Shown here: positions 1 to 64,000 of the stretch, piece by piece
How positions within the stretch are numbered: position 1 is the stretch's first letter
Layout of the letters: each line of letters starts with the position of its first letter
NCBI GenBank assembly: GCA_001724265.1
Contig: MEDY01000014.1
Coordinates: forward strand, 1-64,000
Direction: 5' to 3'
Length of the DNA stretch: 64,000 bases
Source of the DNA: Rhizaria sp. SCN 62-66
Lineage: Eukaryota
The notes under the pieces: generated by a model
What the model saw: only the letters and a program-made list of their open reading frames with translations
What the model was told of the DNA's origin: nothing
Database searches by the model: none
Made by a program: the position numbers and the translations under genes

Positions 1-2160
1 GCGGGCCGCCGCGGCGTCGGCCTTGGCGGCGGCGGCGTCCGCAGCGGCCTCGGTCGCCGCACGCTCGCGGGCCCATTCCTCCTGCGCCTGCGCCAGTCGC
101 GCCGCGGCGTCTGCTGCGGCGGCGCGCGCGGCCGCGGTTTCCGCAGCAGCGGCCTCCGCAGCGGCCTCGGCCTCGGCCGCGGTCTCGGCGTGCGCGCGCG
201 CGCTCTCAGACAGCGCGGCAGCCTAGGCCCGCGCGCGCGCGGCGTCGGCGGCGGCGTCGGACAGCGCGCCCGCGAGCTGCGCCAGCCGCTGCGCGTCACG
301 TTCGGCGCGCGCCTCAGCCTCCGCGGCGGCGGCGGCGCGGGCCTCGTGCGCGGCCTCGTCGGCGACGCTGCGCACGCGCTGCTCCGCCGCTGCGGCAGCT
401 TCCGCAGCGGCCACGGCCGCGCGCTCGAGCGCCTGGCGCTCTTTCTCCTCGCCGACCTGCCGCGCGATGACCAGCGCGGCCTTGGCAGTCGCCAGTTCCG
501 TCTCGGCCGCGCGCGCGCGCGCCTGCGCCTGCGCGACGGCCGCCGTGCCTTCGCGCACTGCGGCCGCGGCCTCAGCGGCAGAGTCGGCGTGGCGGCCCTC
601 GCGCGCGCGCGCCACGGCCAGCGCTTCCTCGGCCGCAGCCAGCTCGCTCTGCAGGCGCGCGGCGTCGCCGGCGCGCGCTTCGGCCGCGGCGAGGCGCGCG
701 GTGGCGTCGGCGCGGCGCGCGCGCTCGTAGTCGACCAGCTCAAGCGCGTGTGCGGCGGCGGCGCGCGCTGTGCTGCTGCTGCCACTACTGTGAGCCGCGT
801 TGCTGTTGTGGATGTCGCCACCAGAGACCGAGCTCGCTGTGCGCTGCGCGGCGGGGGCCAGCGCCGGCGAGCCGTCTCTCACAGTCGCCCTCGGCGGCGC
901 GGCGCTGTTGGCCGTGCCGTTGTTATGCTGTGTTGAAGAGGATGGGTTGCGCTGGTTGTTGACGAGAGCGCGCGCGAGCGCCAGCGCGTCGCTCAGGTGC
1001 GCGTGCATGTGCATGTTCGACGCTACGGCGGCCGCGGCAGTGGCGGCGTTGGCCGCGCTCGCCGCGACAAGCTCCGCGCCAGCGCCGTGGCCGGTCGCGG
1101 CCGCAGTGAGCGCGGTGACGGGGGGAGCGTAAGGCGCCAGTGCAGAGCTCAGCACACCGGAGCTCGGAACGGAGACAGAGCCTGAACGGTCAGCAGCAGT
1201 CGCTGCAGCAGAGCCAGCGCCATTGCCGTTGCTGGCGGCGAGCTGGGCCGCGGCGATGGCGGCGGCAGCAGCGGCCGCGGCCGTGGTCATCGCCTCAGAG
1301 TGACCGTGAGCCGAGTGACCGTGGGCAGGGGGCAGCATGTATGCGTCCGCAGTGTCGATGGCGTAGTCGGCCGCGTGCGTCGACGGGCTCAGTGGACCCA
1401 CGGTCGCCGCGCCAAACGTCAACGGCGGCTGCAAAACACCCTTGTTATTCGCGGGATACTGCTGCTGCTGCTGCTGCTGCGAGACGGCGTGGTGAGAGCC
1501 GTTACCGGGCGCGCGCGCACGGGGCGCGGGGGACAGGTGCGCCAAGCGAGCGGACGCAGCGGTGGCGGCGTGCAGACCGACGCCGGGCGCCACGGGGGCC
1601 GGAAGCGGGTACGCCACAGAGCCTGTACCCGCGCCAACACCCGCAGACGCAGCAGTAGCAGGAGTGGGGAAGGGGATGGCGCCGGGCGGGGCGGGCTCCA
1701 GCAGGAGATCCTGGCGCAGACGCCGCAGCAGCTTGTTGTAGTTGGCGATGTCCGAGTCCAGCGGTGTCGCGCTCGCGCCCGCGGACGAGGTCGTAAAGTA
1801 ACCCGCGCCGGCAGCCGCGTGCGACGGGGCCGCAAACGGGGCCGCGAACGGCGGCTGCGCAGACGGCGCGAAGCCAGGGGTGGCGGGCAGCGCGGCGTCG
1901 TGGATGGGGACGGAGGCCTGCAGACCGGGAGGCAGGCGCAAACCGGACCAGGCGGGCTTGCCGGAGCCGCTGGCCAGAATGCCCGAGCTGGGGTAATGCG
2001 GACGGTCCGTGGAGGAGGCGGCGCGGGCACCGGGGAGGTGTGACGAGGCGCCCATGGAAAGATTCACAGATTGGGTGCTTGTGTCCATGCCAGAGGCGCC
2101 AGCGAGCACGGGCGGGATATTCCCGAAGTCAATCGAACTGTAAAACACGTCGCGGCTCAT
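1..2160 (-). CDS. Uncharacterised protein, low-complexity N-terminus and Ala/Glu/Arg-rich coiled coil; contains in-frame TAG at 223-225; 3' end runs off the window
   Basis: ORF 223..2187(-), first ATG at 2158-2160 (MSRDVFYSS). Past the TAG the same frame stays open for the remaining 74 codons to base 1 with identical coiled-coil character (ARARA*AAALSESARAHAETAAEAEAAAE...LAQAQEEWARER) and no drop in GC. Confidence 0.75.
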
Positions 2161-2551
2161 TTGGTAACGAGTGACAAGCTCGTGCACGAATGCAGATAAG
2201 TTTTGATCCCGAGCGGTCGTCTAAATGTAGATATGACAGAGAGGTAAAGGACGCTTCTGGGAGCACGTAGGCGGATTCAAAATTAAAGAGGTTAGCAAGA
2301 AAAAATTCAAAAAAGAATAATAGAACCTTCATTTTTAGGAGCGGAATTAACACAAATCAAGACCCATTTAATCTAATGACGTTTAACAAGATCAGGGGTG
2401 ACCCGTGAATTCGAGCGTATCATCGAAGGATCCGTTGGCGCGCCAGCGACAGCCGTCGGCCACCGCTCGGTGGTCGCCGAAGGGGGGTGCAGGTTTGGGT
2501 GATTTCATGCAAGTTGCCTGAGTTGAGCGTGATCGTCGAGAACATAGCAGC

Positions 2552-4254
2552 ATGTCTGAGACTCTTCAGAACATCTTTTCTATTCACAGGGTACGTTTAA
2601 TACTGGCTGAACGCTGATCTATCTCATGATATAAGCTTTTATAGCCACTCACATCACAGCCTTCCACGTCATCGCTCCTTTGCCCGTCGTCCTGCAGCCC
2701 GCGGTGACCGTGACCGCGACCTCTGCGTCTGCCGCGCCGGTGACGCTTTCGCATGCGCAGCTTGCTGCGAACACCGACGCCTTTTCGCGCCAGCTGCGCG
2801 CGCTGGGCGTCGCTGTGGGCGAGACTGTGTCGATCCCCATCATCAATAGCGCCGAGTTCATCGTCGCCTTCATCGCCACCACGCTCACGGGCGCGGCCGC
2901 GAACCCGCTCAACCCTGACTACACGGAGGCTGAGTTTACCTTCTACCTTCAGGACACCAAGTCGCGCTTTATGCTCCTCCTCAAAGGCTCCTGCCCGAAC
3001 GCGCGCGCCGCCGCCGCGGCCAACAACGTCGCCGTCATCGAGGTGACCTGGTGCCCTACCACGGGCTCCGTCATCTTCGCCTCTTCTTCCCTGCCCGCGC
3101 CCGCGCCCGCCGCGCTGCCCGCGCCGCCTGCGGACGCCGTCGCGCTGATCCTGCACACGTCCGGCACGACCAACCGCCCCAAGGCCGTGCCTCTGACGCA
3201 CGCGAACCTCATGGCCTCGGTCCGCAACATCGCCGGCACCTACGCGCTGACGCCCGCCGACATCGGCCTGCTCGTCATGCCGCTGTTTCACGTCCACGGT
3301 CTCATGTGCGGACTGCTCGCCCCGCTCTACGTCGGCGGCTCCGTCGTGGTGCAGTATCACAAGTTCTCCGCCAGTCGCTTCTGGACTGACCTGCTCGCGT
3401 ATAAGTGCTCGTGGTTCACCGCCGTGCCCACGATGCACCAGATCCTGCTCTCGGGCGTCGGCAAGCGCGGCCCCGCGGCGCGCGCCGAGCTCCAGTCCGC
3501 TTTGCGCGCACAGGGCCGTCTGCGCTTTGTGCGCTCGTGCTCTTCCGCTCTGGCGCCTGCGACGCTGCGCGCGGTGCACGAGCTGCTGGGGGTGCCCGTG
3601 ATCGAGGCCTACGCCATGACCGAGGCGAGCCACCAGATGACGTCCAACACGCTCACGGTGCAGAAGCCGGGCTCGGTGGGCGTTGGCCACGGCGTCGCTG
3701 TGTCAATCCGCGACGACTCTGGCCGCGCGCTGCCGGCGGAGAGCGAGGGCGAGATCTGTGTCCAGGGCCCCAACGTCACCGCGGGGTACCTCAACAACCC
3801 CAAGGCGAACGCGGAGAGCTTCTTCCCGGGCGGCTGGCTGCGCACGGGCGACCGCGGTCGCGCTGACGCAGATGGGTTTATCTACATCACCGGTCGGCTG
3901 AAAGAGATGATCAACCGCGGCGGCGAGAAGATCATGCCCGGCGAAGTCGACGCCGCGCTGCTTGAGCACCCACTCGTTGCGGAGGCTGTCGTCTTCGCGG
4001 CGCCGCACGCGCTCCTGGGCCAGGTCGTGCACGCCGCTGTCGTGCTCAAGCCCGGCGCGCCTGACGCCACAGGTGACAGCAAGGTGGCGGCGGAGCTCAA
4101 GGGGCAGATCCAGCAGTTTGTGCGCGGAAAGCTCGCCGCGTTTAAGGTGCCTGTGGAGGTCTACTTCGCCAAGTCTGTGCCGCGGACTGCGACGGGTAAG
4201 ATCCAGCGCCGCTTTGTCGCGGAACACTTCCTCAAGCCCCAGGCCAAGCTTTAA
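2552..4254 (+). CDS. Peroxisomal acyl-activating enzyme, oxalate--CoA ligase type (AAE3/PCS60-like); 2 exons (2552-2590, 2698-4254), ~531 aa
   Basis: AMP-binding motif LHTSGTTNRPKAV, PLFHVHGL, EAYAMTEASHQMTSN, GWLRTGD, GRLKEMINRGGEKI, PRTATGKIQRR; C-terminal PTS1 tripeptide AKL; TAA stop. An upstream ATG exon (MSETLQNIFSIHR) joins in frame through GTACGT...CTGCAG. Confidence 0.88.
2591..2697 (+). other. Spliceosomal intron, 107 nt, phase 0
   Basis: GTACGT donor, CTGCAG acceptor, restores the frame from ATG 2552; the nearer AGs at 2644 and 2659 are out of frame. Confidence 0.7.
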
Positions 4255-4756: not shown

Positions 4757-7700
4757 TTACTTGCTGAGGTCGAGCGTGAGCTCGGGCGCGGCGTTGACGG
4801 CATGCATCTTGAGCAGGTGCGCCATCTGGGCGTCGCGCTTGAGCGCACTGAGCCCGCGCGCGACACGCACCGCGGCGCCGGCCGCAGCCGCCGCAGCATC
4901 AGCCGCACCAGTGTGCCAGAGCACTGCGATGGCCCAGGCGACGACGGCCGCTAGCGCAGGCGCGCGCGAGACGATGCCGATGGCGGCAATAAGCGCCAGC
5001 GCGGCGGCGGCCAGCGCAGTGCGGTCGTCGCCGGCGTCCCACGTCACGAGCGCTCGCGCGCGGTGCAGCGCCGTGGCGGCGCGGCCGCAGCCGACCTGAA
5101 GCGCGGTGAGCAGCGCCGTGCTCTGCGGCGACACTGTGGGGGCGAGCGCGCGCAGACGCGTGGCGTAACCCTCGAGCACGATGTCGCGGTGGTCCGCGGC
5201 GTAGTACGACGCGGAGAGCTGCGCGCGGCTGAGCTCGAAGTGGTCCTCGGCCGCCGAGACGACGATGCCGCACAGAAGCAGCAGCGCAGCGACGGTGATG
5301 AGCAGCCACGGTGCGTACACAGCACCCGCGGCGACGCCGACGAGCACCAGCGCCGACAGACTCGGGTTGCGCCACGCCAGCACCGAGTACACGGCAGCAG
5401 CCACGGTCAGCAGCCCGGAGCACGCGTCGGCGAACCGCGCGACGTTGAACACGAAGACTTCAGGAATGAAGACGTTGGTCGCAGCGACAATGCCACCCGC
5501 GGCGCCCGACTGCGACGCAGCGGCGTCGCCCGCGCCCGCGGAGGCCAGGATCGGCAGCCAGAGCGAGGGCTCGTCCGCGGCGCCGAGGTCGCCCAGCGTG
5601 CCCGCGCCGGTCATCGCGCGCGCGGTCGCAACGGCAGACTGGATGAGCTCCGCATCCGCCGCGGTCTGCGGCCGCGACCAGCCGTCCCACATCAGCCCCG
5701 CGCCCGCCGCGCCGGCACTGCCGGCCGCGGCGCCCGCGGGCGCGACGGCGGCCGAGGCGGCGGCCGAGGCGGCGGCAGCAGCGGCGGCGCGGTTGAAAGC
5801 GCCGGTGACGCCGTTGCGCGCGGCCCACTGCGCGACGGGGTGCGCGCCACCCGTGGCGGCCGCGGCGGCGATGGACGCAGTCGCGGCGTCGTCCGCATTC
5901 GTGGCGGCACCCGGGAGACGCGGCGCCGAGTAGGAGCGCGAGCCGTGCTCGACCTCCCAGAGTGCCCACGCGAGGCGGCTGAGCGCGAGCGTGGACTCGA
6001 CGCACACGAACAGGCCCTTGGGCGCGTCGGCGGCGTCGCCCGCAGCGGCGCTCGCGTCGGTGTGCTGGGACGCGAGGATCTCGTGGCGCAGCACTGCGCG
6101 GTCGACCTCGAGCGGGACGCCAGAGAGTGCGTACCACGCGCGGCGCACGGGCAGCTCGCCAGCGGCGGCGAAGGACTCGGCCGTGAAACCGTCGACCTGC
6201 GCGTCCGCCATGAGCTCGCCCAGCGACAGACGCAGCGCGCCGAGGCGGATCGGCCGTGCGGTCTGCGCAGCGGCGGCGCCGGCAAGGGCGGCGGGCGACA
6301 GCGCGGCCGCAGCGCCAGAGGACGCCGCTGCGGCAGCCGCGGCCGCGGTGGGCTTGGCGTAGACAGTGATGAGGAAACGCGTGTCGGGCGCGGCAATGGG
6401 GCTGCAGAGCCCGCGCGTGGGGGCGCCGGCGGCTGCGGCGGCCGGGGCCGATGCGGCCGGAGCGCGCGCCATGTGCGCAAAGACGGGGCCCGGGGAGGTG
6501 ACGTACTGGTCGTCGAGCGCGACGCCAGCGGGGAAACGTGTGCTTACGGTCATCGTGCAGTACAGCTGATACAGAGGCTCGCCCGCGGTGTCGCCCACCG
6601 CGCCCGCAAGCCCGTTGCCTAGCACGGCGGCGATGGAGCCGCCGAGACGCACGAGGCGCAGCGCGTAGTAACCGAGCGCCGCGGGGTCGAAGTCCTCTCC
6701 GACTGTCGCCACTGTGGTTCCGGCCGCAGCGGGCGTCGGCGCGGGGCGCGCACGCAGAGCGCGGAGTCCGCCCTTCGCCGCGGCACGCGCACGCACAGCG
6801 GCAAGCACGTCCGAGGTGGTGCGCGCGGCGAATGAGCGCAGCGGCGCGTGCCACGCGGCGTCTTCCTCGCCCGTCGCGGGCCAGGAGACCGTGCGCAGAC
6901 CGGGGATCAGATCGCCCGCGCCCGCACCACCGGCACCAGAAGCGCCAGAAGTGCGCGCGAGCACGGTGGCGTACTGCTTGCGCTCGAACGCCACGGCGGC
7001 GCGCACGGCGGCAGGATCCGTGGAGATGAGCTTGCCGATGCGCGCGATGCAGAGCGGCTGCTTGATGTTGGCCGCGTTGACGAGCGAGATGGGCAGCGAG
7101 CCGCAGAGGTCGGAGCCGAGCGCGTAGATGATGTCCGACTGCGGCGGCGCGCCCGCGGGCAGGTCTGTGGCGGGCGAGATGAGCAGCGCCTGCACGTGGA
7201 GAATGCCACGGACGAACTTCTTCCCCACGGGCACGCGCGGGTCGACGTAGTTGGTGAAGTACACGAAGATGGCCTTGTTGGGCAGCAGCTCAGAGCGGCC
7301 CAGCGTGCAGAAGTCGCGGCCGGACACGGGCCACGGCGCCTTGAACCCAGCCGTGGCGATGACCGTGTTAGTGTCGATGCTCTCGACGACGCGACCGGAG
7401 TCGTACGTGTCGTCCCACTTGGGGCGCGTGTTCCCGGCCGCGAACATGCAGCGCACCGTTTCGGGGTCGCCCGGAATGCGGCCGACGCCCTTGGTGTAGT
7501 TGAGCGGTGTCTTGCCGTCGCTGCCGGGCGGGCCCTGCTTCTGGTAGATCTTAATCCCCTCGAGCTCGGTGACAAACTTCCACCCGTCGTCCTCGTTCTG
7601 ATTGGCCGCGCGCCACGCCGCCGCGCGCGCAGTCACCAACAGGGCGTCGTGCTTGCACGGGCCGGTGGGCGCGATCGAGATTGCGTAGTCTTCCTGAGAC

Positions 7701-11912: not shown

Positions 11913-12601
11913 ATGGTCGGATGTCAGGCAGCTGCCTCCAGCTGTCTCTGGCTTCTTCTCATTGTGGCTTCCCTTTGCGGGCTCACACTCGCGGAGGTAT
12001 GTTCCCCACTCCGCATTTGTTTAGTACCCGTGTTTTTTCTCTACCCTGTACAATGCCACCCCGAAATTCTTCTGTGTAGCCCCCTCACATTACCTCCCCG
12101 CTCACCCACCCTGCCTCCTTCTGACTTGCTGTCCCCAACTTGCTTTTGTCCCCTTCCCCACAGGATGCGCCCCCGGCGGGCCAGGCGTACTATGCACCGA
12201 CGGACAACACGATCGACACCCCGACGTACGTGTGGCGCAACTTCCCTTCCGGCGCGAGCTCGATGACGCACCGTCCGTGGGTGCAGCCCCGTGTACCGAC
12301 CGGCCCTATCGTGATCCCCGCCACGAGCTCAATCGGCGCACAATACGCCGGCGTGCTCCTGCCGCAGCCCATCCTGCCCTTTGCCGCCAACTACGTCTCG
12401 CTGCCGCTGCGCGACGGCCGCGGTGGCAATCCCAGCGGGTTCGCAGACTACACGAACCATCTCACCCCGCCTATCTTCATGGAGATGGGCGTCAAGATCT
12501 TGCTCCCCGTCGCCGCCACCGCCGCCGCTGACGCTCCCGCCGTTGCTGCTGTTGCCCCCGCCGCGGACGCGGTGGAGCCCGTTGTGCCGCCCACGTTCTA
12601 A
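11913..12601 (+). CDS. Small secreted Pro-rich protein of unknown function; 2 exons (11913-11996, 12164-12601), ~173 aa
   Basis: Exon 1 encodes a signal-peptide-like segment MVGCQAAASSCLWLLLIVASLCGLTLAE; the GTATGT...CACAG intron joins it in frame to DAPPAGQAYY...; TAA stop. Confidence 0.75.
11997..12163 (+). other. Spliceosomal intron, 167 nt, phase 0
   Basis: GAG|GTATGT donor, pyrimidine-rich body, CACAG|GAT acceptor, frame preserved. Confidence 0.8.
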
Positions 12602-13020: not shown

Positions 13021-14553
13021 TTACCAAGACCAGTCATCCTTGCCCTTCGCAGGTGCAGCTGCACTGCTAGCTGCACTGCTAGCTGCAGGTGCAGCAACAG
13101 TAGACGCGGCAGCAGCTGGCCGAAACGCCACAGGCGGGAACGCGGGCATGACCGGTGCCGGCGGCGCAGTGACCGTGGGCATCGCTAGTGCTGGCGCAGC
13201 AGCGACCGCGGGCATGGCAAACGTTGGTAGCGCCGGCGCAGTGACCGCGCTCGCATTGAGATTGCTGCCGGTGATCAGAGGCGTGCGCAAAGGGGGTGCG
13301 GGCGAGAGCACCGGGGCCGCCATCGCGCCCGACAGTGACGGCGACACGGCACTGACTGTCTGCGAGACTGTCAGGGGGGCGACGGACACGGCGGGAGCGG
13401 GAGCGGACAGCGACGGAGCTGGCGCTGGCTGCGCGACTGTCAAGGGCAGCGAACGCGCTGGCGCTGGCGCAGGCACAGGGGCGGGGGCCGCGACGGCGGG
13501 GACGGCAACGGGAGCGGCGATGGGGATAGGGAGGGTGAACGAAGGCGCCGGGACCGACAGGACTGGAGCTGAGATGGGCGCTGACACGGGAGCAATTGGA
13601 AACGAAAAGGACGGCGCGGCGACGGCGAATGTGGGCATTGTGAAGGCCGGTAGCGGCGGCGCGGCGACGGAAAAGCCCGGCATCGTTGCCGCGGGAAGCG
13701 CAGTCACGTCAGACGCAGTGACGACAGGCTTCACCACTGACGCTGCAGACGCCGCCGCAGACGATGGTGCGGGGGCAGGCGCAGGCGCAGGCACAGAAGG
13801 CGCAAGCAAAGCAGCCGGAACAGAAGCAGCGGGGACGATAACAGTCGGTGCAACAGGAACCGGAGCAAGAACAGGAGCAGCAGCAGCAGGAGCAGGAGCC
13901 GTAGGCGAAACGACAGAGGCAGCCGATGGGGCAGCAACAGAGCCGGTTACGGGAGAAGAACTGCTCGCAGCTACAGGACTGATCGGAATAGGCAGGGTGC
14001 CGCTCGCAGCAGCGATCATATTGTTGAGTGTGGTTGTCACAGTTACAACATTGTTACCAACGCTACCAGAACCAACGCTGCCAGTGCCACCGACGGCGAA
14101 GGTAAGCGCGGGCCCTTGCGCCGCTTTCGCCCCGCGGCGGCGCAGCACCCGCAGAGCGGCCTCCGTCTCGGCGTCTGTCTCGGCCGCAAGCGCGCGCGAG
14201 AAGGCCGTCTCCGCGGAAACCTCAGTTGCGCCGTACGCTAACGTGCCTTCAGCGGGGGCCAGCGCGGCAAGAGCGGTGATGCGGTCCAGCGAGCGCGACA
14301 GAGACGCGGCGGCAAAGGCGGCGGCCACCGTGGACGCCGCGCGCTGCGTGCAGGCGTGGTGCCGCGCGACGTCGACCGTTATCGTCGGGGCAGCGTTGGA
14401 GCTCTGGGAAGAACTGACAGCGGTGCTTGCACTGGTCGCGGGGGCGGGTGCGGCGGAGTAGCAGGGCAGGGTAAGGACCTCGCTGTGCGCGGCAAGCAGG
14501 GCCACATCGGAGGCAACCTCGGAGGGCAGCGGGAAAAACGACAGCGCGGACAT
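13021..14553 (-). CDS. Uncharacterised Pro/Ala-rich protein ending in ...KGKDDWSW, ~510 aa
   Basis: Long ORF flanked by AT-rich spacers, ATG at 14551-14553, TAA stop; short helical N-terminal part followed by a P/A/V/S low-complexity tail. Confidence 0.75.
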   Translation of the reverse strand: MSALSFFPLPSEVASDVALLAAHSEVLTLPCYSAAPAPATSASTAVSSSQSSNAAPTITVDVARHHACTQRAASTVAAAFAAASLSRSLDRITALAALAPAEGTLAYGATEVSAETAFSRALAAETDAETEAALRVLRRRGAKAAQGPALTFAVGGTGSVGSGSVGNNVVTVTTTLNNMIAAASGTLPIPISPVAASSSSPVTGSVAAPSAASVVSPTAPAPAAAAPVLAPVPVAPTVIVPAASVPAALLAPSVPAPAPAPAPSSAAASAASVVKPVVTASDVTALPAATMPGFSVAAPPLPAFTMPTFAVAAPSFSFPIAPVSAPISAPVLSVPAPSFTLPIPIAAPVAVPAVAAPAPVPAPAPARSLPLTVAQPAPAPSLSAPAPAVSVAPLTVSQTVSAVSPSLSGAMAAPVLSPAPPLRTPLITGSNLNASAVTAPALPTFAMPAVAAAPALAMPTVTAPPAPVMPAFPPVAFRPAAAASTVAAPAASSAASSAAAPAKGKDDWSW

Positions 14554-17146: not shown

Positions 17147-18076
17147 ATGTCTTCCGACGACGAGCCCGAGGAGCGCGAGATCATGCCCGGCGTGTACGTC
17201 ACACACTACGGCAAGAACAAGAAGTCCGCCGCTGCCACTGGCACTGCCGACCGCGACGAGTCGAAGGCGTCCGCGGCCGCTGCGATGGCCGCTGCCGCCG
17301 CGGGCGACGATGACGCCGACTTCTCCCAGTTCTCCACCGAGTTCCTGCTTGCTGAGACGCAGCGCCTCAGCGCGCAGATGGATGCCGTGCGCGCGCGCAC
17401 CGCCGAGGACACCGCCGAGCTTGCCCGGCTCCGCGCGCGCATGGCGGCCGAGCTCTCGGGTCACTCCGGCGCCGGCGCTGGGCACGCTGCGACTGGCTCC
17501 ACGCGCCTCCCGGGTTCCGCCGCGAGCGTCTCCCCCGCGATGCCTGGCTTCTCGCCTACGGAGGCCGTGCACCAGCTTGAGTTCCAGCTCCGCGCGGCCG
17601 AAAATGACCTGCGCCACCTTGAGCAGTCGCAGGTCACGTTGCGTGCTGCGCTCGAGGCTGAGCCTGACGACGAGGTTCTTCAGGAGGGTACGCACATTTC
17701 AGGCCTTATAATGTTGTGTTAGAAACTGATCTTTGGCGAAATAGCATGCTTGTTGTGATTTACTTCAATTCTCTTTGCCAGATCGTGTTATCTCCATCAT
17801 AATCTTTATTGTTTCCGATGTCGTATCGATGTTATTCCTTACATTCTTTTTTTTTCTTTTCTTCGCTACTGTTCTTTCGCATTGTTTGCGCCCACCACAG
17901 CCGTCACCGAGAACGAGCCCGTGCTGGCGAAGAAGCGCGCCGCGCTGATCCCGCTGCGTGAGGACATTGCGCGCCGCATCGCAGCGCTGGGCCCTGCCTA
18001 CAAGCCCGCTTCCGTCCCTGCCCCTGCTCCTGCAGCGAATGATGACGATGACGACGCTGCTGAGCGCGCAGAGTGA
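17147..18076 (+). CDS. Uncharacterised small coiled-coil protein; 2 exons (17147-17687, 17901-18076), ~238 aa
   Basis: Two ORF-track pieces joined by a GTACGC...CACAG intron give ...NDLRHLEQSQ..LRAALEAEPDDEVLQEAVTENEPVLAKKR...; TGA stop. Confidence 0.78.
17688..17900 (+). other. Spliceosomal intron, 213 nt, phase 1
   Basis: G|GTACGC donor, AT-rich body with T-tract, CACAG|CC acceptor; reconstitutes GCC (Ala). Confidence 0.85.
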
Positions 18077-19258: not shown

Positions 19259-19323
<65 letters not shown>

Positions 19324-45865: not shown

Positions 45866-45899
<34 letters not shown>

Positions 45900-48800: not shown

Positions 48801-50280
48801 CGCGTTGCTCTTGATCGATCACATCGCGGCTATCGAGGCCGAGGCACGTCGCATCGACGACGCACAGGACAGCGGCCACAACCACCTGATCCCGAACTCG
48901 CTCTCCATGGGCGGGTCGCACACCCCGCCGCTGGCGCGCAACCCCGACGGCGTGCGGCCCGCGTTCGCGGCTACCCCGGCTGCGTCCGCGGTCGGCCAAG
49001 GCGGGTCCCCGCTCAGCCCCGACGCTAACAACGGCAGCGCCTACAGTGGCGAGATCCCTCTCGCGGGCGCTGGCGAGACCAACGGCGAGCATCTGGGCCT
49101 CAGAGACCCCGAGAACTACGTCGTCGCCTCGGCCGGGTTCGAGTACCCCGCGCTGCGTGACCCGCACAAGGCCACGCTGCTGCAGCGCGTGATTCTCGCC
49201 GGCGCCGTTTTCTCGCGCATGACCCCCGACCAGAAGGCCGGACTCGTCTCGCACTACATGGCGCTGGGCATGTACACCGGCATGTGCGGTGACGGCGCGA
49301 ATGACTGCGGCGCTCTCAAGACGGCCCACATGGGCGTGTCGCTCGCCGAGTCTGAGGCGTCGATCGCCGCACCCTTCACGTCGCAAATCTCCGACATCTC
49401 GTGTATCCCCATTGTTCTGTGCCAGGGCCGGTCCGCGCTGGCGACGGCGTTTCAACTCTTCCGCTACATGGGCCTCTACTCGGTCATCCAGTTCGGCTCG
49501 TGCATCCTGCTCTACTTTAAGGGCGGCAACTTTTGCGATTACCAGTTTCTGTACCAGGATCTCTTCGCTGTGTTTCCGCTCGCACTCGTCATGGGCCGCA
49601 CGCCGTCTGCTGTGGAGCTTACCCCGCACCGGCCGTCGAGCAACCTGCTCTCGCCGCTCAACATCTTCTCTATGTTGCTGCACATGGCCGTCGCACTGGG
49701 CTTCCAGCTCATCGTGTACAAGCTCACTGGACGCGTCGATGGGTACATCGTATACCCCAACGAGGATTACTACTGCGAGCTCTGGGAAGCCACGGTGATC
49801 CACTACTTTGTATCAATGCAGTACGTGCTCTTCGCTGTCGTCTTCTCCATCGCGCCGCCGTGGAAGCGTGCTCCCTGGCACAATCCCGGTCTCGTTGCCG
49901 TTGTCATCGCCTCGTTCGTGTGCACTGTGACATTCTTCTTCGTCGGCCCCAAGTCGTTTATCCTGATGCAGGATGATATGCCGATCCCGCGCGACTGGAA
50001 GGTCATGGTCATGCTCATCTTCATCGCACACTGCATCGTCACCGTGGTCATCGAGTTTGGAGTCATGCGCCTCATCCGCTGGGCCGCGTCGCGCCGCCTC
50101 GCTGGTGTCCGCACGAATACTGTCTTCGGCCCCGGTGATGCTCGCATTGAGTCTGGCGCGCGCCCGTACCATTACCTGCGCCGTCAGTTTGAGGATATGT
50201 GGCCCGCGTCGCAGATTTCGATTGTCATCCCGCGCGCTGCGCACGCTTCGTCGCCCACGTCGTACGACCGTGTCGACTAA
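44308..50280 (+). CDS. P5B-type ATPase (ATP13A2/ATP13A3/Ypk9-like polyamine transporter family) with long inserts, 1990 aa
   Basis: PFFVFQVYSVILW, VNEAMLTGESVPVVKT, TIVVPPSLP (P5B-like PPxLP, not P5A PPELP), CFDKTGTLT phosphorylation site, FPFESGLQRMGV, KGAPE, MVTGDN, MCGDGANDCGALK, SEASIAAPFTS; C-terminal TM bundle; TAA stop. Confidence 0.93.
45868..45897 (+). repeat. (GCC)n microsatellite encoding a poly-Ala run inside the ATPase
   Basis: Read directly from the sequence. Confidence 0.85.
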
Positions 50281-50563: not shown

Positions 50564-50580
50564 CCCCCCCCCCCCCCCCC
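50564..50580. repeat. C17/G17 homopolymer in an AT-rich convergent intergenic region
   Basis: Read directly from the sequence. Confidence 0.9.
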
Positions 50581-51022: not shown

Positions 51023-54000
51023 TCAACCGATCCTGGCGAGCGCCGCGGCGGCGCGGCCCTTAGCTCCACCCTTGAGCGCTTCCAAGAACTCGGCCTCTTC
51101 CCCCTCGTTCTCATCGTCGATATCGAGGTCGTCGACGTTATCGATCACGACGACTTCGTCGACGCACTCGTAGAAGTCATCCGGAAACGCCGGGAGATCG
51201 TACATGAAGCTCGCCGACGCGCCCTGCAGACTCGCGCTCGAAGGCCAGCCAGAGAGCGAGCTTTCCAACGCGCCTCCTTGAGCGACCCATTCTGCCACGG
51301 CCGCGGCCGCGGTCGCGTTGGAGTCACTGTTGTCAAAGTCGCCGCTACTAAGCATATCGCGATTCGCAACACCCGAACCAGCAGCGCAGAGGGCAGCAGC
51401 GTTGGCAGAAGGGCCGGCGCCGCTGAAGTCAATCGAGATCTCTCCGACCGCGCCGCTTCCGTTGCCAGCACCGCAGGCGCAGTCAGCGGTGGTGGTGCCC
51501 TGGCAGGCGCCGCAGGCGAGGCCAGTCTCCGGGTGCAAACGCGGGAAACGCTGCGGGGTGTCCTTGATCGCGAACGGCGGCTTGATGAACACGGCCTCGC
51601 CAGCGGAGAAAGAGAAGACTTCGGGCATCGGTAGCGTCTCGAGCTCCATGCCGCCGCCGTTGACGTCCATCGTCGCGACGCCGTTGTTGTCTGCGTGATC
51701 GCGAGGATCGTCGTCGGAAGCGCGGTCGCCACTGCGGTCCGTTGCGAGGGGTTCAACGGGGCTGACGCCGTCTTCTTTCCCGTCATCGTCGTCGTCGTCG
51801 CTGCCGCCGCTCCTCGTCAGCAGACTGCGTGTGTCGACCTCAAGCCGTGGGCGCGAGGCCGCAGTGGGCGCCGCGCCGGGCTGCCGCGTCGCAGGGGTAC
51901 TCGCAGCGGACCCCAAACCAAGTCCGAGGCCAGCGCCGGTGGGGGCAGGGACGGCGGCAGACGCGGCGCGGTCGTTGCGCACATTGTGCGGGCCCGTCGC
52001 CGCGGTGGGCTGCGGGCACGTGGCCGGCGTGCCCGTTTTGCTCCCAGCGGGAGCGGCGGATGTGGCGGAGGCGAAGTCGGGCGCGGCGGGGCGCACAGGG
52101 GTCGTGAACGCGCCCGCAGACATGTGGCCGCCACCGACGCTACGTGCACTGCGCGCGGGCGACAGCGGCGGGCCCGCGTCGGCCCCGTACCCGACCACGC
52201 CAGAGCCGCACTGCGCGCCGGGCGCGGGCGAGGCCGACGGGGACGGGGTGAGCGACGCTCCGTGCGACGCAACGGCCACGAGCTGTGGCGAGCCCGACGG
52301 CGCGGGGGACGGCGTGTACCGGATGTATCCGCCGCCGTCGAGCTGCACGACCTGCTGCTGCTGCAGCTGCGAGGCCTGGAACTGCAGCATCATTGCCGTC
52401 GCCACGGCGGCCGCCGCGGCGGCGCCCGCGCCCACGGCCGCGGTGAGAAACACAACGCTGTCGACCGCGAACGCGAACGCCCCCGCCGCGCCGGGGACCG
52501 GGAGGAAGCCCGCCGGCACGAGGTGCGACAGCGCGGGCGTCATACCAGGTGATGACGCAGTTGGCCCCGCAAGACCGAAGTTAGCGCCGTAGCCGAGACC
52601 GAGGCTGGTGCTGGACGACGAGTGCGGAAGCGCGCCGCTGTCGCCGGCCGACACAGCCGCGCCGCCGCTGCCGCCGCCACCGTGGAGACCGTGGGCGGCA
52701 TGCAGTCCCCCTTGTGAACCCGGCGTGCCATGCGGACCCGCGACTGCGCCGGGGCCGGCGCTGGAACCGGAGCCAGAACGGGGCAGCGCGGGCCGCGTGT
52801 CGACCGACGCACTGGTTGCGCGCGTGCCGTGGGGGCCGACGGGCAGTTGCAGCGGCACCGGGGCTGACAGCACAGTCGCCGTCCCGGCTGCAGTCGCACT
52901 CGCCGGGTTCGCGTCGCTGGAGCTGCTGTTGCTGTTGGCGATGTTTGTTGCGGCGGGCGCGGCGGTGAAGGACAAATGCGTGCCGTGCGGCAGCGGCTGC
53001 GGCAGCATCAACAACGAGCCCGAGCCGCGGCGGCGCGCGGACGAGCCCGGACTAGCGGGCGCGAGAGAGCCGGCGCGCGAGAACGAAGGCGCCGCCATCT
53101 GCTGCTGCTGTTGCTGCAGGGTCTGGAGCTGTTGGAGGATGTGGCGCGACAGCGGCGCAGCGGCGTCCAGCGGCAGCGGCGCGGTGATGAGCGTAAACGC
53201 CTTGCCCAGGTTGGTCAACGCAACCGCGCCAGTGCACGCAGCAGCCGCGGCCGCCGCGTCGGCGACGGTGACACCGGGCGCCACCAGTGCGCTTTGCCCG
53301 GCGAGCGAGACCGACACGGGGGGCGTCGCGGGCGTCACCGGCGTCGCGCCCCCGGACGCGCCCACCCAGCCGGCCACACTCACGTTGCCGCTGGCGCTGA
53401 CGCAGACGCCCGGGCTCGCGCCGGCGCTCCCGCTGGTGGCGCTGGCAAGAGCGCCCCCGCTGCCGGTCGCGTAAGAGCCGGCGGCGGGGCCGGAGAGCGA
53501 GAGGGCCGGCACGATGGCGCCGCAAGCCGCCCCCGCAGCCGGCGCGCCGTGCGGCCGCGCGGGCGACAGCGGGGGCTTGCCCGACGCGCTGCCGCCGCTG
53601 GGACCGGCGGCGAGGCCGGTGGGCGGCGCCAGCAGAGTCATGCTCGGTAGCGTGAGCGAGCTACGGGGGGCGTCGCCCACTGCAGGTGCGGCCGCATTGT
53701 TCACAATCGCAATTCCAGTTGCAGCAGTGCTGGCGGCACTAGAGACGGCGATGACGCGTGTAGTAGTCGTCGCAGCAGCCGAAGAAGAAGGCTCATCCGC
53801 CGCAGCGCCTGACACCAGAGCCGACACTGAACTCGACGCAGACACGACGGCGACCGCGAGAGCCGGAGGCACAGTGCTTGCAGCAGCGGAAACACTCACA
53901 CTCACTCTAGAGCTCACGTTTGCGCTAGCAGTGGAGTCTGCGCCAGTCACCGACGGAGCCGGACTCGCGCCGGCCGCTGCCGCCGCCGCCGCAGCGGCCC

Positions 54001-56802: not shown

Positions 56803-57207
56803 TTAGCGGCGCGCGTTCGCGGCAGCGGCGATGTCGCCCTCGAAGCCGTGCTGGCCCGCAGTGACGGTCTCACCGTTGCGGCCCATAAGCGGGTTCGAAA
56901 TGGGCAGATACGGCGGCTGGAGAGGGATGCCGTGCAGCTCGCGGAGCTCCTTGGCGGCGTACCACATCGGGCGCGTGAGCAGAATCTCCTCCTCGTCCTT
57001 CTTAGAGAGACGCATGTGGTTGGGGTCGAAGACGAAGAACGGGTCATTCTCCCAGTGCTTGTTATTTTCCTTCCACTCCTCCAAACGCGCGCGGCGGTCG
57101 ATGTACACGCGGCCCGAGTTGTAGGCGATCAGTCCGCCAACAATAAAGAGCGTGTTAAGCGCCACGCGGTGCGTGAAGTCAAAGAGCGAGTCGAGACGGG
57201 GCGGCAT
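56803..57207 (-). CDS. Small single-TM protein, possibly COX14-like mitochondrial assembly factor, 134 aa
   Basis: ATG ORF with coding-like codon use; N-terminal FDFTHRVALNTLFIVGGLIAY followed by a charged helix resembles the D-x-x-H-R plus TM layout of fungal Cox14 (from memory, unverified); TAA stop. Confidence 0.6.
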   Translation of the reverse strand: MPPRLDSLFDFTHRVALNTLFIVGGLIAYNSGRVYIDRRARLEEWKENNKHWENDPFFVFDPNHMRLSKKDEEEILLTRPMWYAAKELRELHGIPLQPPYLPISNPLMGRNGETVTAGQHGFEGDIAAAANARR

Positions 57208-57799: not shown

Positions 57800-59966
<2,167 letters not shown>

Positions 59967-60214
59967 GAAGAGCAGTCGTGTGCGTCTTGTGCGCAAACTA
60001 TAACTCGAACTTGTTCAATAATTGGAATTTTCGGGCCCGCTTGCATCGGCCTGCTTGCAGATCCTATTTTCAGTTTGTCTGTTAATATTGACCAGAGTTG
60101 CATGTATGGAGATCCCGTCTTGAGAATAAATTGTATTAATATATATCATGCAGGTTTTAATTCAAAATTCAGAAAATGTTCGTTCTTCATAACGTCTAAG
60201 TAAAAGAGAGTCAC

Positions 60215-63200
60215 TCAGTCGAGCGCCTGCAACACTTCTTGGAGTACCATGAACGCGGCCTCAGCCTCAGCGCTTTGCTGCCACGGCAAGTGCGTCGTCT
60301 TATCGGGGTGCAACGGCACCGAGATCTTAAGCAGATGCTTGCGCACAACGCGCGCGCTGCTCAAATCGCCGTAGTCGCGTCCGCGCTCCCCGAAGATGCC
60401 CAGCACCTGCGCGGGCGTCTTGCTCGCCACGCGCGCCTTGAGCCGCCGGTAATGTTGGTCCAGTAGCGCCCCGCGCGAGGCCGGGTCGTCCTGCAAACCG
60501 CCGGCCCTGGCGGCGGCCACGCGGGCAGACGCGCGCGCACCGCCGTTCGCATTTGACCCAGCGTTGGCACTTGCACTCGCATTCGAGCTCGCATTCGAGT
60601 TGGCCCTGGCGCGGGCCTGGGCCTGCGCTTGTGCCTCCGCGTGCGCCCTCGCGGTGGCCCGGGCCTTAGCCTCAGCCTCCGCTTGCGCGCGCGCACGCTG
60701 CGCCTGCACGTGCGCCTGCGCTTGTGCCTGCGCCTGCTGTGCACGCACACGCGCCGCGGCCGCTGCCATCGCTTCCGCCTCTTGCGCACGCGCGCGCTCG
60801 AGCGCGCGTTCACGTTCGAGCGCGCGTTCACGCTCACGGCGCTCGCGCAGCTCACGATCCTGCTCCTCCGCGACCCGCTGCTGCGCTGCCCGCAACGCCG
60901 CCTCCGTCGCGGCCGCGGTCGCCGCCGCCGCAGCAGCAGCAGCGCTGTCGCCGCCGCCGTTCGCGCCCATGAAAGAGAAGCCGCGCACGAGCGCGGGGGC
61001 GGACGTGGCCGTGCCGCCGGCCTGACGCAGTGCGTCGCGCTGCCGGGCCAGTGCCGCCGCCAGTTGCGGCTGCGGCGCGGACGTGTGCGGCGTCGCGCCC
61101 TTGGCCACGCGCGCGCGCGAGGACATGCCGTGCGTGTACGCATGCGCGTACGCTTGCGACGGGGACTGCGGCTCGAAGGAGCGCTCGTCGCTCGCAGCGT
61201 TGTCATCGTAGCTGTATCCTGCGCTGCTCTGATGGATGTCGCCGTGGCCGTGGCCGTTGGCGTCATCGGTGTCATAATCACGGTCTTCGTAGGCCTGGCT
61301 GTGCGCGGAAGCAGAGGCGACGGCTGCGGCAGCGGACTCTGCGGCGGCGGCAGCAGCGGCGGCCGCGCTTGAGGCTGCGGCCTGCGCGGCGGCAAGAGCA
61401 CGGCCTTCCTCAGTCTCATACTGGTGACTGTGATCAACCGAGTGATCGTGAGCAGCGGGGTGGACGGAGTGGGCGGCGCTGAGGTAGGGGTGACCGTGCT
61501 CGTCGCTCTGCTGATACTGCTCGTGTCCTTGGTGCTGAACGTACTCGGCGTACACTCCCCCGTGGCCGTGACCATGGCCGTGAGCGTGGCAGTGCTAGCT
61601 GTGCACATACTGCCCGTGCGCATACTGCGCGTGGTAGTGCGCACTGCTGTTCTCATCGAGCCCGCCCCCCGCGCCGTGCTTCTCGACCGCGTCGCGCTCG
61701 TCGTCGTCGTCGTCATCGTCGTCGCCATGGTCGTGACTGTGCGCAACGCGCCGCGCCACGCGCAGCATGTGCTCGCGCACCGCCTCCATGCCCTGCTTGC
61801 TGCCCGCACGCGTCGCGCGCGCGCGCTCGCCCGCGCGCTCCCGAGCCAGCGCCTGCGCCCGCGCGCGCGCACCAGCGCCCACTGCGCCAGCAGCAGCGGC
61901 CGCGGCTCCGGGGAGCTTGTCTTTGATCTCGCCCGCCGTGCGCCGCACCGTCGGTAGACGCGCACGCCCTGCCAGCGCGGCTGCGGCCGCAGCGGCAGCC
62001 GACTGCGCCTTCATCGCATCGCGGAACCACGCGGCCTCGCTACGGAGACCTGAGCTCGCGCCGTCTGTATTGTCGCCGTGCAGTTGCGCGTTGTTGGTGT
62101 GCGACGCGAGTGAGGCCGCGACACTGCGCAGCCGCCGCAGGCCGCCAGCCGCAGCAGCCTGCGCTTCGGCCTCCGCGAGCGCGGCCGCGGCTGCAGCGGC
62201 GACGGCGCGAACACGGGCTTCCGCCTCGGCCTCCGCGGCCGCCACCGCCACGCTCCGTCGGCTCGCGCGGCGGCCGCCGGGGACCGTCGCGCTGCCCAGC
62301 AGCTTGGCGGCCGCGGCGGCCGAGGCAGACAGCGTGCGCGCGGAGGCGGGGCCGCCGGGTGTGCGGCGGCGGGCCGCGGTGCTGCTGAGGCCGGAGACGA
62401 GATCGCCCTCGTGACTCTCGGCGTCGCTGTCGTAGACAGGAACGGCTGTGCCCAGCTCAACAGTGACGTTCGCGCCATCAGCGTCGACGTCGTCGGAGTC
62501 GCCGTCGTGACTATCAGCGTCCCGCTTGCTAACGCCGCGCTTGCTACCCTGCACTAAAGTGGCAGTAGTGTTTGCGGCAGAGCCGGTCGACTGACGGCCC
62601 CTGCCGCGGCCCACCGGCATCGCCGCAGACGCAGCCTCGCTCGCAACAGCGGCGGGGCTGGGCCCGCTGGCACTGGCGCGGGCCCGGCGACGCACTGCGG
62701 GGATAGACTTGTTGTTGCGATCGCTAATAACCGCAACGTCGCTGTCGCTGCTTTCGCGGTGCTCGTGGTCGCGCTTCGAAGCAGCTGCAGTGCCCCGACG
62801 TGTCGCAGCGCCAGTCGCCGTCGCAGTCGCCGTCGCCGCCGCCACAGATGCAGGCGTGGGGGTGGGGGAGCGCGGGCGGCGCGCGCGGGACGTGGTGGCT
62901 GGCACGGCCGCGCGCGATTTCACACCCGCGCCGGTGCTGGTGCGGCGCGCTGCCGTGTCCGCCACGGGAGCCCGTAACTGACCGTGGGCGGCAGCGGCGG
63001 GAACGCGTGCCGCAGGTGCCGGGGTGTCCATCATGGGAATCGACTGGCCCCGCATAAGCGTGTTGACGCCGAGTGAGCTCGAGCCGTGCGCGCCGTGGCT
63101 GCCGCTATAGTGGTCATAGTCGCGGTCATTGTCGACGTCGTCGCCGTCGTCGACGTCGCCTTCGTTAACAGTGGTAGCCGGCGTGCTGTTGTTGTTGTTG

Positions 63201-64000
63201 TTGTTGTTGTGGCCAGCGCTGACTGCACTTGGAGCAGCGAGCGTAGTGGCGCTAGAGCTAATGCGCTTGCGCCCACGTGCAGCAGCCGCAGTCCCCTTGT
63301 TAGCGCCGCCCGCGGTCTTGGCGGTCGTCGCGGCAACGTACGGGGTCGCTGTCATCGCCGCGCCGCCGCCGGAGTGGCCGTGAGCCGCCGAGTGACCGTG
63401 AGCAGCGGCGACAGAGAGGTGGTCCCCGTCGCCATGTAAGTACCCGCCGTCGCTGTGTGCGCCGTTCCCCATCGCCGGCGTGGCCGCAGTGACTGTGAGC
63501 ACGGGCGCGCGCCCCGGTGTCGCGACACCAGCACTGTCGCTGCCGCTATTAGCGCTGACGTTTGTGGCGGTTGTGGTGCGACGGCGGCGGCGTGCAAGGC
63601 CGAGACCGAGCTTTGTCTTGCTCACTGTCATCACGGCCTCAGACTCCGCCTCATCAGCCGCCGCCGCAGCAGCAGCAGTGCTGGACTCGTCGACGCCAGC
63701 GCCACCTCGACTCGCGCGCTGGGGATTGCTCCCAGTCGCGCCCGCGGACGGTGGCCGAGCCACCACGGCGGCGGCCGCTGCAGCGGTAACGGCGGCGGCG
63801 GACGCGGCGGCAGCGGCCGAGAACGATGACGGCAGCGCAAAGAGCGGGTTCGGCGTCGAAGCCAGCCCCGCGCCGCCAGCGCCCGGGGTCGCGCCGCCGA
63901 TGCTGCTCCTCGCGCCGCCCCTGTCCGCAGTCGCCGCGGCACCACTACCACTGCCACTGCCGGCCCCTGCGTTGGCGCCGTTGTTGTTGGCGAGGCTGAC
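60215..64000 (-). CDS. Large low-complexity protein with C-terminal J-domain-like module; in-frame TAG at 61595-61597; 5' end outside the window
   Basis: The frame is open from base 64000 to the TAG. ORF-track entries 61595..63766 and 60215..61555 are in the same frame and separated only by *HCHAHGHGHGHGG. C-terminus AQVLGI...VRKHLLKISVPLHPDK...AEAEAAFMVLQE; TGA stop then AT-rich DNA. Confidence 0.8.

What the first reader, a model, noticed from the sequence alone, without database searches (positions are those of the whole stretch)
1..64000. Candidate non-standard nuclear genetic code: UAG read as sense while UAA and UGA remain stops
Seen: all 15 gene ends visible in the window use TAA (4254, 4757, 12601, 13021, 29239, 50280, 56803) or TGA (16529, 18076, 24923, 28874, 34381, 51023, 59966, 60215), and the DNA beyond them turns non-coding and AT-richer. 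None uses TAG. The only two in-frame TAGs in the reconstructed CDSs are internal, in different genes, with coding-style sequence continuing in frame. Arithmetic: 0/15 has probability ~0.002 if TAG were a third of stops and ~0.035 if a fifth. Known: UAA and UAG are usually reassigned together; UAG-only reassignment is rare but reported (Gln in the fornicate Iotanema spirale, Leu in the rhizarian exLh, and some ciliates). Inference: this organism may have such a code with UAG as a rarely used codon. The amino acid cannot be fixed here because neither site is in a conserved domain. Caveat: the assembly also has one apparent indel, so errors exist.
Basis: partly seen in the sequence, partly recalled or inferred. 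Interest (0 to 1): 0.92.

Follow-up and report, generated by a model that had tools for sequence, protein, structure and literature searches.

The report
Two in-frame TAGs; code change unproven
An uncultured, GC-rich sewage eukaryote ends every visible gene with TAA or TGA and carries two real-looking in-frame TAG codons, but these fit two truncating mutations in repetitive orphan genes better than a changed genetic code.

Summary
All 15 visible gene ends are TAA (7) or TGA (8). Two in-frame TAGs exist, at 223-225(-) and 61595-61597(-), each in the best-scoring of six frames on both sides.

The inference is weak.
- P(0 of 15) is 0.035 at the 21% TAG share seen in non-coding DNA, and 0.06-0.21 once the unknown TAG preference is integrated out.
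- 67-69% of all possible nonsense substitutions in these genes give TAG, so "both are TAG" has P of about 0.45 under plain mutation.
- Only 2 TAG occur in 17,726 codons. A settled TAG=Gln code would predict about 76, from TTG:CTG = 79:522.
- Both TAGs, and a frameshift in a third gene, lie in low-complexity orphan genes. None lies in a recognised domain.
- No tRNA is in the window. No homologue spans either TAG.
- No more DNA of this organism could be fetched.

An independent Logan contig of run X3 reproduces TAG 61595, so that site is unlikely to be a one-off assembler error.

My odds: standard code with young truncations about 0.55; UAG read as sense about 0.09. The whole assembly is needed to decide.

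The parts
223..225 (-). In-frame TAG no. 1, context gcc-TAG-gct, inside an Ala/Glu-rich coiled-coil-like stretch
1..2220 (-). Gene 1: orphan low-complexity ORF of 665 codons before the TAG and 74 after it, running off the left end; first ATG at 2160
   Evidence: no Pfam family; no homologue
61595..61597 (-). In-frame TAG no. 2, context agc-TAG-cac, inside a His/Tyr/Gln-rich stretch that continues on both sides
   Evidence: reproduced without difference by X3 contig 58380-63320
60215..64000 (-). Gene 16: orphan ORF, at least 801 codons before the TAG (5' end off the window) and 459 after it, ending at TGA 60215; sub-threshold J-domain-like end at about 60221-60358
   Evidence: DnaJ E=0.0078, 16.7 bits against a cut-off of 27.8; no homologue
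4252..4254 (+). TAA end of the Pcs60-like acyl-CoA synthetase, directly after a conserved C-terminal AKL
4757..4759 (-). TAA end of the 2243-aa START-domain gene
12599..12601 (+). TAA end of a small orphan gene
13021..13023 (-). TAA end of a 519-codon orphan ORF
16527..16529 (+). TGA end of the dynamitin gene
18074..18076 (+). TGA end of gene 7 (two exons)
24921..24923 (+). TGA end of gene 8 (frameshifted orphan)
28872..28874 (+). TGA end of the Methyltransf_28 gene
29239..29241 (-). TAA end of the alpha-carbonic-anhydrase gene with giant inserts
34381..34383 (-). TGA end of the 2973-aa Ala/Glu-rich (coiled-coil-looking) gene
50278..50280 (+). TAA end of the P5-type ATPase gene
51023..51025 (-). 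TGA end of the EF-hand gene
56803..56805 (-). TAA end of a 138-codon gene (weak COX14 match)
59964..59966 (+). TGA end of the class-III aminotransferase gene (three exons)
60215..60217 (-). TGA end of gene 16
23310..23340 (+).
17688..17900 (+). GT-AG intron (213 nt, AT-rich) of gene 7; holds the TAG at 17720-17722 that closes the exon-1 frame
58703..58944 (+). Intron 1 of the aminotransferase gene (GTACGT...TTAG), AT-rich
59033..59145 (+). Intron 2 of the aminotransferase gene (GTACGC...ACAG), AT-rich

Best explanation
The organism most likely uses the standard stop set. The two in-frame TAGs are working stop codons made by recent single-base nonsense substitutions, fixed in a nearly clonal population. 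They sit inside very long, repetitive, fast-evolving orphan genes that tolerate truncation. Because the DNA there is 66-85% GC, the old reading frame downstream stays open and still looks coding. The lack of TAG among 15 gene ends is a small-sample effect in an organism that prefers TAA and TGA followed by G. Shown: the codons, frames, composition and mutational arithmetic. Inferred: that the TAGs terminate translation and that they are young.
For: (1) Of all possible single-base nonsense substitutions in 17,726 window codons, 2384 of 3571 (66.8%) give TAG, or 68.8% with transitions and GC-to-AT changes up-weighted. Two random nonsense hits are therefore both TAG with P of about 0.45. (2) TAG is extremely rare in frame: 2 in 17,726 codons. 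The synonymous first-position pair TTG:CTG is 79:522, which would predict about 76 TAG beside 503 CAG if TAG were a neutral Gln codon. (3) Both TAGs lie in genes with no above-threshold Pfam family and no homologue (none of 8000 candidates; 4 hits at E<=0.001, none at E<=1e-10, all to coiled-coil-like parts). None lies in the genes with recognised domains, which hold 56% of the codons. (4) A third orphan gene carries a frame change, so ORF-breaking lesions occur on this contig whatever the code. (5) P(0 of 15) is 0.035 at the 21% TAG share of non-coding DNA (188 of 882 stop triplets). It is 0.06-0.21 when the unknown preference is integrated over broad priors. If the two TAGs are counted as ends, 2 or fewer of 17 has P = 0.31 at f = 0.2. 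(6) The population is nearly clonal. X3 shows 0 differences over 13,844 nt of listed contig pieces, and X4, from another study, 1 difference over 7,723 nt. A fixed truncating allele is therefore plausible.
Against: Two nonsense lesions in 16 genes is a high rate for a free-living organism. The coding signal downstream shows no decay: 0.60 after against 0.49 before TAG 223, and 0.22-0.33 after against 0.23-0.28 before TAG 61595. The 459-codon frame after TAG 61595 has P of about 1e-4 of staying open by chance at 70% GC, so the lesions would have to be very young, or the downstream parts still translated. Across 50 eukaryotic genomes TAG usage rises with GC3 (rho 0.64; Ho and Hurst 2022, PMC9348620, passages). 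This makes 0 of 15 in a genome with GC3 near 0.85-0.9 more surprising than a flat 20% suggests. All 15 accepted ends are followed by AT-richer DNA and the two TAGs are not.
Confidence: 0.55

Rival explanations
1. UAG has been dropped as a terminator and is read as an amino acid, at a very early or inefficient stage, while UAA and UGA stay stops.
For: 0 of 15 gene ends use TAG. Two in-frame TAGs lie in the best coding frame with undiminished coding signal and high GC on both sides. TAG 61595 is reproduced in the X3 contig. The His/Tyr/Gln-rich composition continues across TAG 61595. The precedent of exLh and Iotanema shows the same pattern of ends: UAA and UGA only (PMC5304391 passages).
Against: Only 2 TAG occur in 17,726 codons, against about 76 expected from TTG:CTG and against 5.4 and 1.6 per gene in the two documented cases. 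None lies in a conserved domain. No homologue aligns across either site. There is no tRNA in the window (a 64-kb sample says little). TAG is the default product of nonsense mutation here. The prior for a non-ciliate lineage is very low (my estimate).
Confidence: 0.09
2. One or both TAGs, and the frame change in gene 8, are sequencing or assembly errors in poorly covered, extremely GC-rich repeats of a low-depth metagenome assembly.
For: The depth of the organism's contigs is only about 4-7 in X3 and X4. The frame change lies in a GC-dinucleotide run. TAG 223 follows a similar gcgcgcgcgcggg run. Site 223 was not checked against any run.
Against: The X3 Logan contig 58380-63320 carries TAG 61595 with 0 differences and 0 gaps, and the listed X3 pieces show 0 differences in 13,844 nt. 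Only 2.2% of random substitutions make a stop, so two nonsense errors would imply roughly 90 substitution errors, which is not seen. X3 may be the source sample, so it is not fully independent.
Confidence: 0.12
3. The code is standard, but the two TAGs are leaky: they allow programmed or tolerated read-through by a near-cognate tRNA, giving short and long protein forms.
For: TAG 61595 is followed by C, recalled as a weak termination context. All 8 TGA ends are followed by G and 5 of 7 TAA ends by a purine. The downstream frames are intact.
Against: There is no stimulatory structure: the 100 nt after each TAG fold no better than shuffles (z = +0.75 and +0.35). The contexts TAG-GCT-GCC and TAG-CAC-TGC do not match the recalled CAR-YYA read-through motif. 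A 459-codon extension would be unusually long.
Confidence: 0.07
4. The TAGs are ordinary, old gene ends, and the sequence after them belongs to separate downstream genes or GC-rich untranslated regions.
For: Counting them as ends gives 2 of 17 TAG, unremarkable at f = 0.1-0.2. An ATG lies 157 codons after TAG 61595, at 61126. At 81% GC a 74-codon frame stays open by chance with P = 0.55.
Against: All 17 intergenic and intron stretches I delimited are AT-richer, 44% GC overall. There is no such spacer after either TAG. The downstream sequence is in the same frame, with the same composition and the best coding score of six frames.
Confidence: 0.08

Closest known systems
UAG-only nuclear reassignments: rhizarian exLh (UAG=Leu) and Iotanema spirale (UAG=Gln), Panek et al. 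2017, PMC5304391 (passages read)
   Same: Bona fide ends are only UAA and UGA (56+15 in exLh; 104+15 in I. spirale), and UAG occurs only inside frames. The window shows 7 TAA, 8 TGA and 0 TAG ends, with 2 internal TAG.
   Different: Those cases have 384 in-frame UAG in 71 genes and 204 in 126 genes, many at conserved aligned positions that fix the amino acid. Here there are 2 in 16 very long genes, both in orphan low-complexity sequence, with no alignment possible. The tables of that paper are in supplements I could not open.
UAG reassignments in phyllopharyngean ciliates (PMC11687900) and a ciliate with UAA and UAG coding different residues (PMC10553269); search listing and start of abstract only
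   Same: They show that UAG can change meaning on its own.
   Different: Those are ciliates. This contig is 66% GC with compact genes and GT-AG introns. The closest named matches of one enzyme are fungal.
Premature-stop (loss-of-function) alleles in dispensable, fast-evolving genes of natural isolates (general knowledge, recalled)
   Same: Single in-frame stops in otherwise intact frames, enriched in non-conserved genes and accompanied by a frameshift in another such gene.
   Different: Three of 16 genes affected is a high rate, and the downstream coding signal shows no decay.
Programmed stop-codon read-through (recalled: tobamovirus-type UAG-CAR-YYA; C-terminal extensions in fungi and animals)
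   Same: An in-frame UAG is followed by an intact frame.
   Different: Neither the motif nor a downstream structure is present.

Membership tests
UAG-only stop-to-sense nuclear code (exLh / Iotanema type) | UAG never marks a bona fide gene end, while UAA and UGA do | tested here: met
   0 of 15 visible ends use TAG. The sample is small: P = 0.035 at f = 0.2 and 0.06-0.21 integrated over priors.
UAG-only stop-to-sense nuclear code (exLh / Iotanema type) | Recurrent in-frame UAG inside conserved genes, at positions aligned to one amino acid in orthologues | tested here: not met
   No TAG lies in any Pfam-matched gene of the window (codon tally). The two TAG genes have no homologues.
UAG-only stop-to-sense nuclear code (exLh / Iotanema type) | UAG used at an appreciable codon frequency | tested here: not met
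   2 in 17,726 codons, against about 76 expected from TTG:CTG = 79:522 applied to 503 CAG. The documented cases have 1.6-5.4 per gene.
UAG-only stop-to-sense nuclear code (exLh / Iotanema type) | A tRNA with anticodon CUA | tested here: inconclusive
   No tRNA of any kind is in the 64-kb window (ARAGORN; Rfam). The rest of the genome is not held.
UAG-only stop-to-sense nuclear code (exLh / Iotanema type) | eRF1 N-domain changes that weaken UAG recognition | not testable with these tools
   eRF1 is not in the window, and no further DNA of the organism could be fetched.
UAG-only stop-to-sense nuclear code (exLh / Iotanema type) | The in-frame UAGs are real in DNA and RNA | tested here: inconclusive
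   TAG 61595 lies in X3 contig 58380-63320 with 0 differences, and no variant row appears at the site in X3, X4, X5 or X7. Cover of the site by X4, X5 and the RNA run X7 is not shown, and X3 may be the source.
Programmed stop-codon read-through | Stimulatory 3' context or downstream RNA structure | tested here: not met
   The contexts are TAG-GCT-GCC and TAG-CAC-TGC. Folding z-scores are +0.75 and +0.35 against 200 shuffles each.

The most novel reading that the evidence does not exclude
An unplaced, GC-rich wastewater eukaryote has already purged UAG from its gene ends and begun to read it as an amino acid, perhaps inefficiently. It would be caught at the earliest stage of UAG capture, with UAA and UGA still stops. 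One of its enzymes is most like fungal ones. If it sits in or near Fungi, I recall no nuclear stop-codon reassignment there.
Probability: 0.09. Interest if true: 0.85.

Novelty: not a real feature. Interest (0 to 1): 0.3.

Why it matters
If UAG were sense here, this would be a rare UAG-only nuclear code in a new lineage, at a stage with hardly any UAG codons yet. That would give a direct view of how a stop codon is captured. As it stands, the value of the case is cautionary. In very GC-rich genomes, nonsense mutation yields TAG two times in three. The old frame then stays open and coding-like for a long time, so a few in-frame TAGs plus a small TAG-free sample of gene ends imitate a code change. 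Such candidates need genome-wide evidence before they are believed.

Tried and rejected
- Homologues across the TAGs. Gene 1 read with TAG=Q gave no hit at E<=0.001 among 8000 candidates, probably swamped by Ala-rich words. The last 1200 residues of gene 16, read with TAG=Q against 1.84 billion representatives, gave 4 hits at E<=0.001 and none at E<=1e-10, all to coiled-coil-like parts.
- More DNA of the organism. No genome is held.
  - The metagenome scan with the Pcs60-like protein gave 80 loci, the best at 57% identity (L001), and not the window's own contig.
  - L001 is 51% GC and its large neighbouring gene is unrelated to the window's, so I dropped it.
  - The genome-contig scan with the P5-ATPase gave 14 loci, all at E of about 1e-5. 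I examined two, L083 and L085, and both lack the AT-rich spacers seen here; L083 is uniformly 68-78% GC.
  - The viral-contig scan gave none.
- Reads. Only one stretch could be laid, so site 223 is unchecked. Cover of 61595 by X4, X5 and RNA run X7 is not shown in the cut table, so I draw nothing from them.
- Introns around the TAGs. The three verified introns are AT-rich and start GTACG[TC]. I saw no GT...AG unit around the TAG at 61595 that would keep the frame and no AT-rich stretch at either site, so I rejected this.
- Other frames at site 223 give Arg/Pro nonsense.
- Read-through structure: none.
- Rfam: 0 matches.
- Protein Atlas: only confirmed the dynamitin family.
- Earlier scan notes: nothing on this genome or its relatives, and the 8 notes concern other genomes.
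- Literature on wastewater eukaryotes with reassigned stops: nothing relevant in the listing.
- One coordinate slip was corrected.
Full report
WHAT THE WINDOW IS

The window is 65.9% GC. GC-rich blocks of 60-80% are separated by short stretches of 36-50% GC.

It carries 16 compact genes on both strands, most of them single very long ORFs. Recognised families are:
- a Pcs60-like AMP-binding acyl-CoA synthetase
- a 2243-aa protein with five START domains
- dynamitin
- a Methyltransf_28 protein
- an alpha-carbonic anhydrase stretched to 1534 aa by Thr/Pro/Ala-rich inserts
- a 1990-aa P5-type ATPase
- an EF-hand protein
- a class-III aminotransferase

Three GT-AG introns can be read directly: 17688-17900, 58703-58944 and 59033-59145. 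All are AT-rich and start GTACG[TC]. It is therefore nuclear DNA of a eukaryote.

No whole genome is held. The stretch 59000-64000 is held almost completely by three bioreactor or wastewater runs, and in part by runs of other studies, including a poly(A) metatranscriptome.

The organism is not placed.
- The P5-ATPase has a 100% match (P0001) and a 76% relative (P0002), both unnamed. Its named matches are only 29-38% identical.
- Every organism name among the 120 listed matches of the Pcs60-like enzyme is a fungus by my recollection of the taxonomy, at 47-52% identity. Unnamed metagenome proteins reach 57-77%.
- I treat a position in or near Fungi as a lead only.

THE OBSERVATION

- After each of them GC falls to 31-60% within 150 nt.
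- The next 74 in-frame codons score -0.04 to -0.95 on a codon log-odds model trained on eight window genes.

A greedy, code-blind selection of high-scoring ORFs gave no additional TAG-terminated gene. The one ORF that closes with TAG, 17021-17722, is exon 1 running into the intron of the gene that ends at TGA 18076.

- At both, the TAG frame is the best of six on both sides. The values are 0.49 before and 0.60 after the first, and 0.23-0.28 before and 0.22-0.33 after the second.
- The flanks stay at 85/81% and 67/66% GC.
- The alternative frames at site 223 translate to Arg/Pro- or Arg/Gly-rich nonsense.
- The 459-codon frame after TAG 61595 would stay open by chance with P of about 1e-4. The 74 visible codons after TAG 223 would do so with P = 0.55, so there the composition, not the openness, is the evidence.

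The "apparent indel" is a frame change at about 23310-23340 in a GC-dinucleotide run of orphan gene 8.

IS TAG 61595 REAL?

A Logan contig of run X3 covers 58380-63320 with no difference and no gap.
- The eight listed X3 pieces show 0 differences in 13,844 nt.
- The eight listed pieces of X4, from another study, show 1 difference in 7,723 nt.
- No variant row falls on 61595-61597 in any of the four runs.

X3 may be the source sample.

Only 2.2% of possible substitutions make a stop. Two nonsense errors would therefore imply an error load that these comparisons exclude. I take TAG 61595 as real DNA and TAG 223 as probably real.

HOW MUCH THE PATTERN SAYS ABOUT THE CODE

1. The gene ends.
   - TAG is 21% of stop triplets in the 9,183 nt of intergenic and intron DNA (188 of 882) and 21% in the off-frames of the training genes (258 of 1,234).
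   - At f = 0.2, P(0 of 15) is 0.035. With the unknown preference integrated over Beta(2,8), Beta(1,4) or a flat prior it is 0.13, 0.21 or 0.06.
   - Against this softening, TAG use rises with GC3 across 50 eukaryotes (rho 0.64; PMC9348620 passages), and GC3 here is about 0.85-0.9.
   - Yet this organism uses TAA for 7 of 15 ends despite that GC3, so its stop choice does not simply follow GC3.

2. The identity of the internal stops.
   - With this codon usage, 66.8% of all possible nonsense substitutions give TAG, or 68.8% weighted. CAG, GAG, AAG, TCG and TAC are abundant, and their A- or T-ending counterparts are rare.
   - "The only internal stops are TAG" therefore has P of about 0.45 under plain mutation.

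3. Frequency.
   - There are 2 TAG in 17,726 codons.
   - If TAG were an established, neutral Gln codon, the TTG:CTG ratio (79:522) applied to 503 CAG predicts about 76.
   - In the two documented UAG-only codes there are 384 in-frame UAG in 71 genes and 204 in 126 genes (PMC5304391 passages).
   - A settled reassignment is thus effectively excluded. Only a nascent or inefficient one remains possible.

4. Location.
   - Both TAGs, and the frame change, lie in orphan low-complexity genes that hold 44% of the codons.
   - None lies in a gene with an above-threshold recognised domain.
   - Neither TAG gene has any homologue, so no aligned residue can be read.
   - The J-domain-like end of gene 16 is below threshold (E = 0.0078, 16.7 bits against 27.8).

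5. Machinery. There is no tRNA or other Rfam family in the window, which says little for 64 kb. eRF1 is not in reach.

WEIGHING

Taking a prior of a few in a thousand for a non-ciliate lineage (my estimate), the likelihood ratio from 0 of 15 ends and two TAG-only interruptions is roughly 5-50. It is reduced by the very low TAG frequency, the orphan location, and the frame change that shows lesions occur anyway.

That gives odds near 0.09 for UAG being read as sense.

The most likely reading, at 0.55, is a standard code with two young truncating TAG substitutions fixed in a nearly clonal population. The high GC content preserves the old frame.

Its weak points are the high rate (two nonsense lesions and one frame change in 16 genes) and the undecayed downstream coding signal.

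Other readings:
- Errors (0.12). This is disfavoured for 61595 by X3 and open for 223.
- Leaky read-through (0.07). There is no stimulatory context or structure; z = +0.75 and +0.35.
- Ordinary old gene ends followed by separate ORFs (0.08). No AT-rich spacer is present; the frame and composition are the same.

COMPARISON WITH WHAT IS KNOWN

The pattern of ends matches exLh and Iotanema. The defining abundance of UAG at conserved positions was tested and not met, so I do not file the window under that code.

VERDICT

The sequence observation is confirmed. The genetic-code inference can be neither supported nor refuted from this window, and is more likely wrong than right.

The decisive data exist in the public runs that hold the organism: a stop-codon tally and codon-meaning inference over the whole bin, a search for a CUA-anticodon tRNA, eRF1, and raw reads at both sites.

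Noticed in passing
window 223-225 and 61595-61597: Both in-frame TAGs sit in 6-nt palindromes, CCTAGG and GCTAGC. Only 26 of 386 TAG occurrences inside gene spans do (6.7%), so both by chance is about 0.0045, but this is a post-hoc pattern. It is unexplained.
   Followed up: partly
window, the 15 gene ends: All 8 TGA stops are followed by G (TGAG), and TAA is followed by g,t,g,c,a,a,g. This points to a strong preference in the base after the stop.
   Followed up: no
window 23310-23340 (+): A frame change within orphan gene 8 (18599-24923) inside a GC-dinucleotide run. It is either an assembly indel or a real frameshift, and was not checked against reads.
   Followed up: partly
window 29239-33843 (-) and 44308-50280 (+): Conserved enzymes are inflated by huge low-complexity inserts: an alpha-carbonic anhydrase of 1534 aa with Thr/Pro/Ala-rich tracts between its conserved blocks, and a P5-ATPase of 1990 aa. 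The relative P0002 has similar Ala/Gly-rich inserts.
   Followed up: no
window 2635-4254 (+): The Pcs60-like synthetase ends in AKL like its relatives, which looks like a peroxisomal PTS1 signal (recalled). Its conserved N-terminal part lies upstream of the first ATG of the ORF (2971), so a small 5' exon or a non-ATG start is likely.
   Followed up: no
window 58527-58780 and 58876-59141: Contigs of the poly(A) RNA run X7 are colinear with the DNA across the aminotransferase introns. They are unspliced RNA or DNA carry-over, so X7 is weak evidence of mature mRNA.
   Followed up: no
window 62140-62145: One contig each in X3 and X4 carries a CC insertion plus a 1-nt deletion (net +1) in the upstream ORF of gene 16, at organism-like depth. 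It may be an allele or a look-alike repeat from elsewhere.
   Followed up: partly
window 4757-11488 (-): A 2243-aa protein with five START lipid-binding domains in tandem.
   Followed up: no
L001 (255-kb metagenome contig, 51% GC): It encodes the closest DNA-level relative of the Pcs60-like enzyme (57% identity), beside a 2463-codon ORF unrelated to the window's neighbouring gene. Whether it is eukaryotic was not established.
   Followed up: partly
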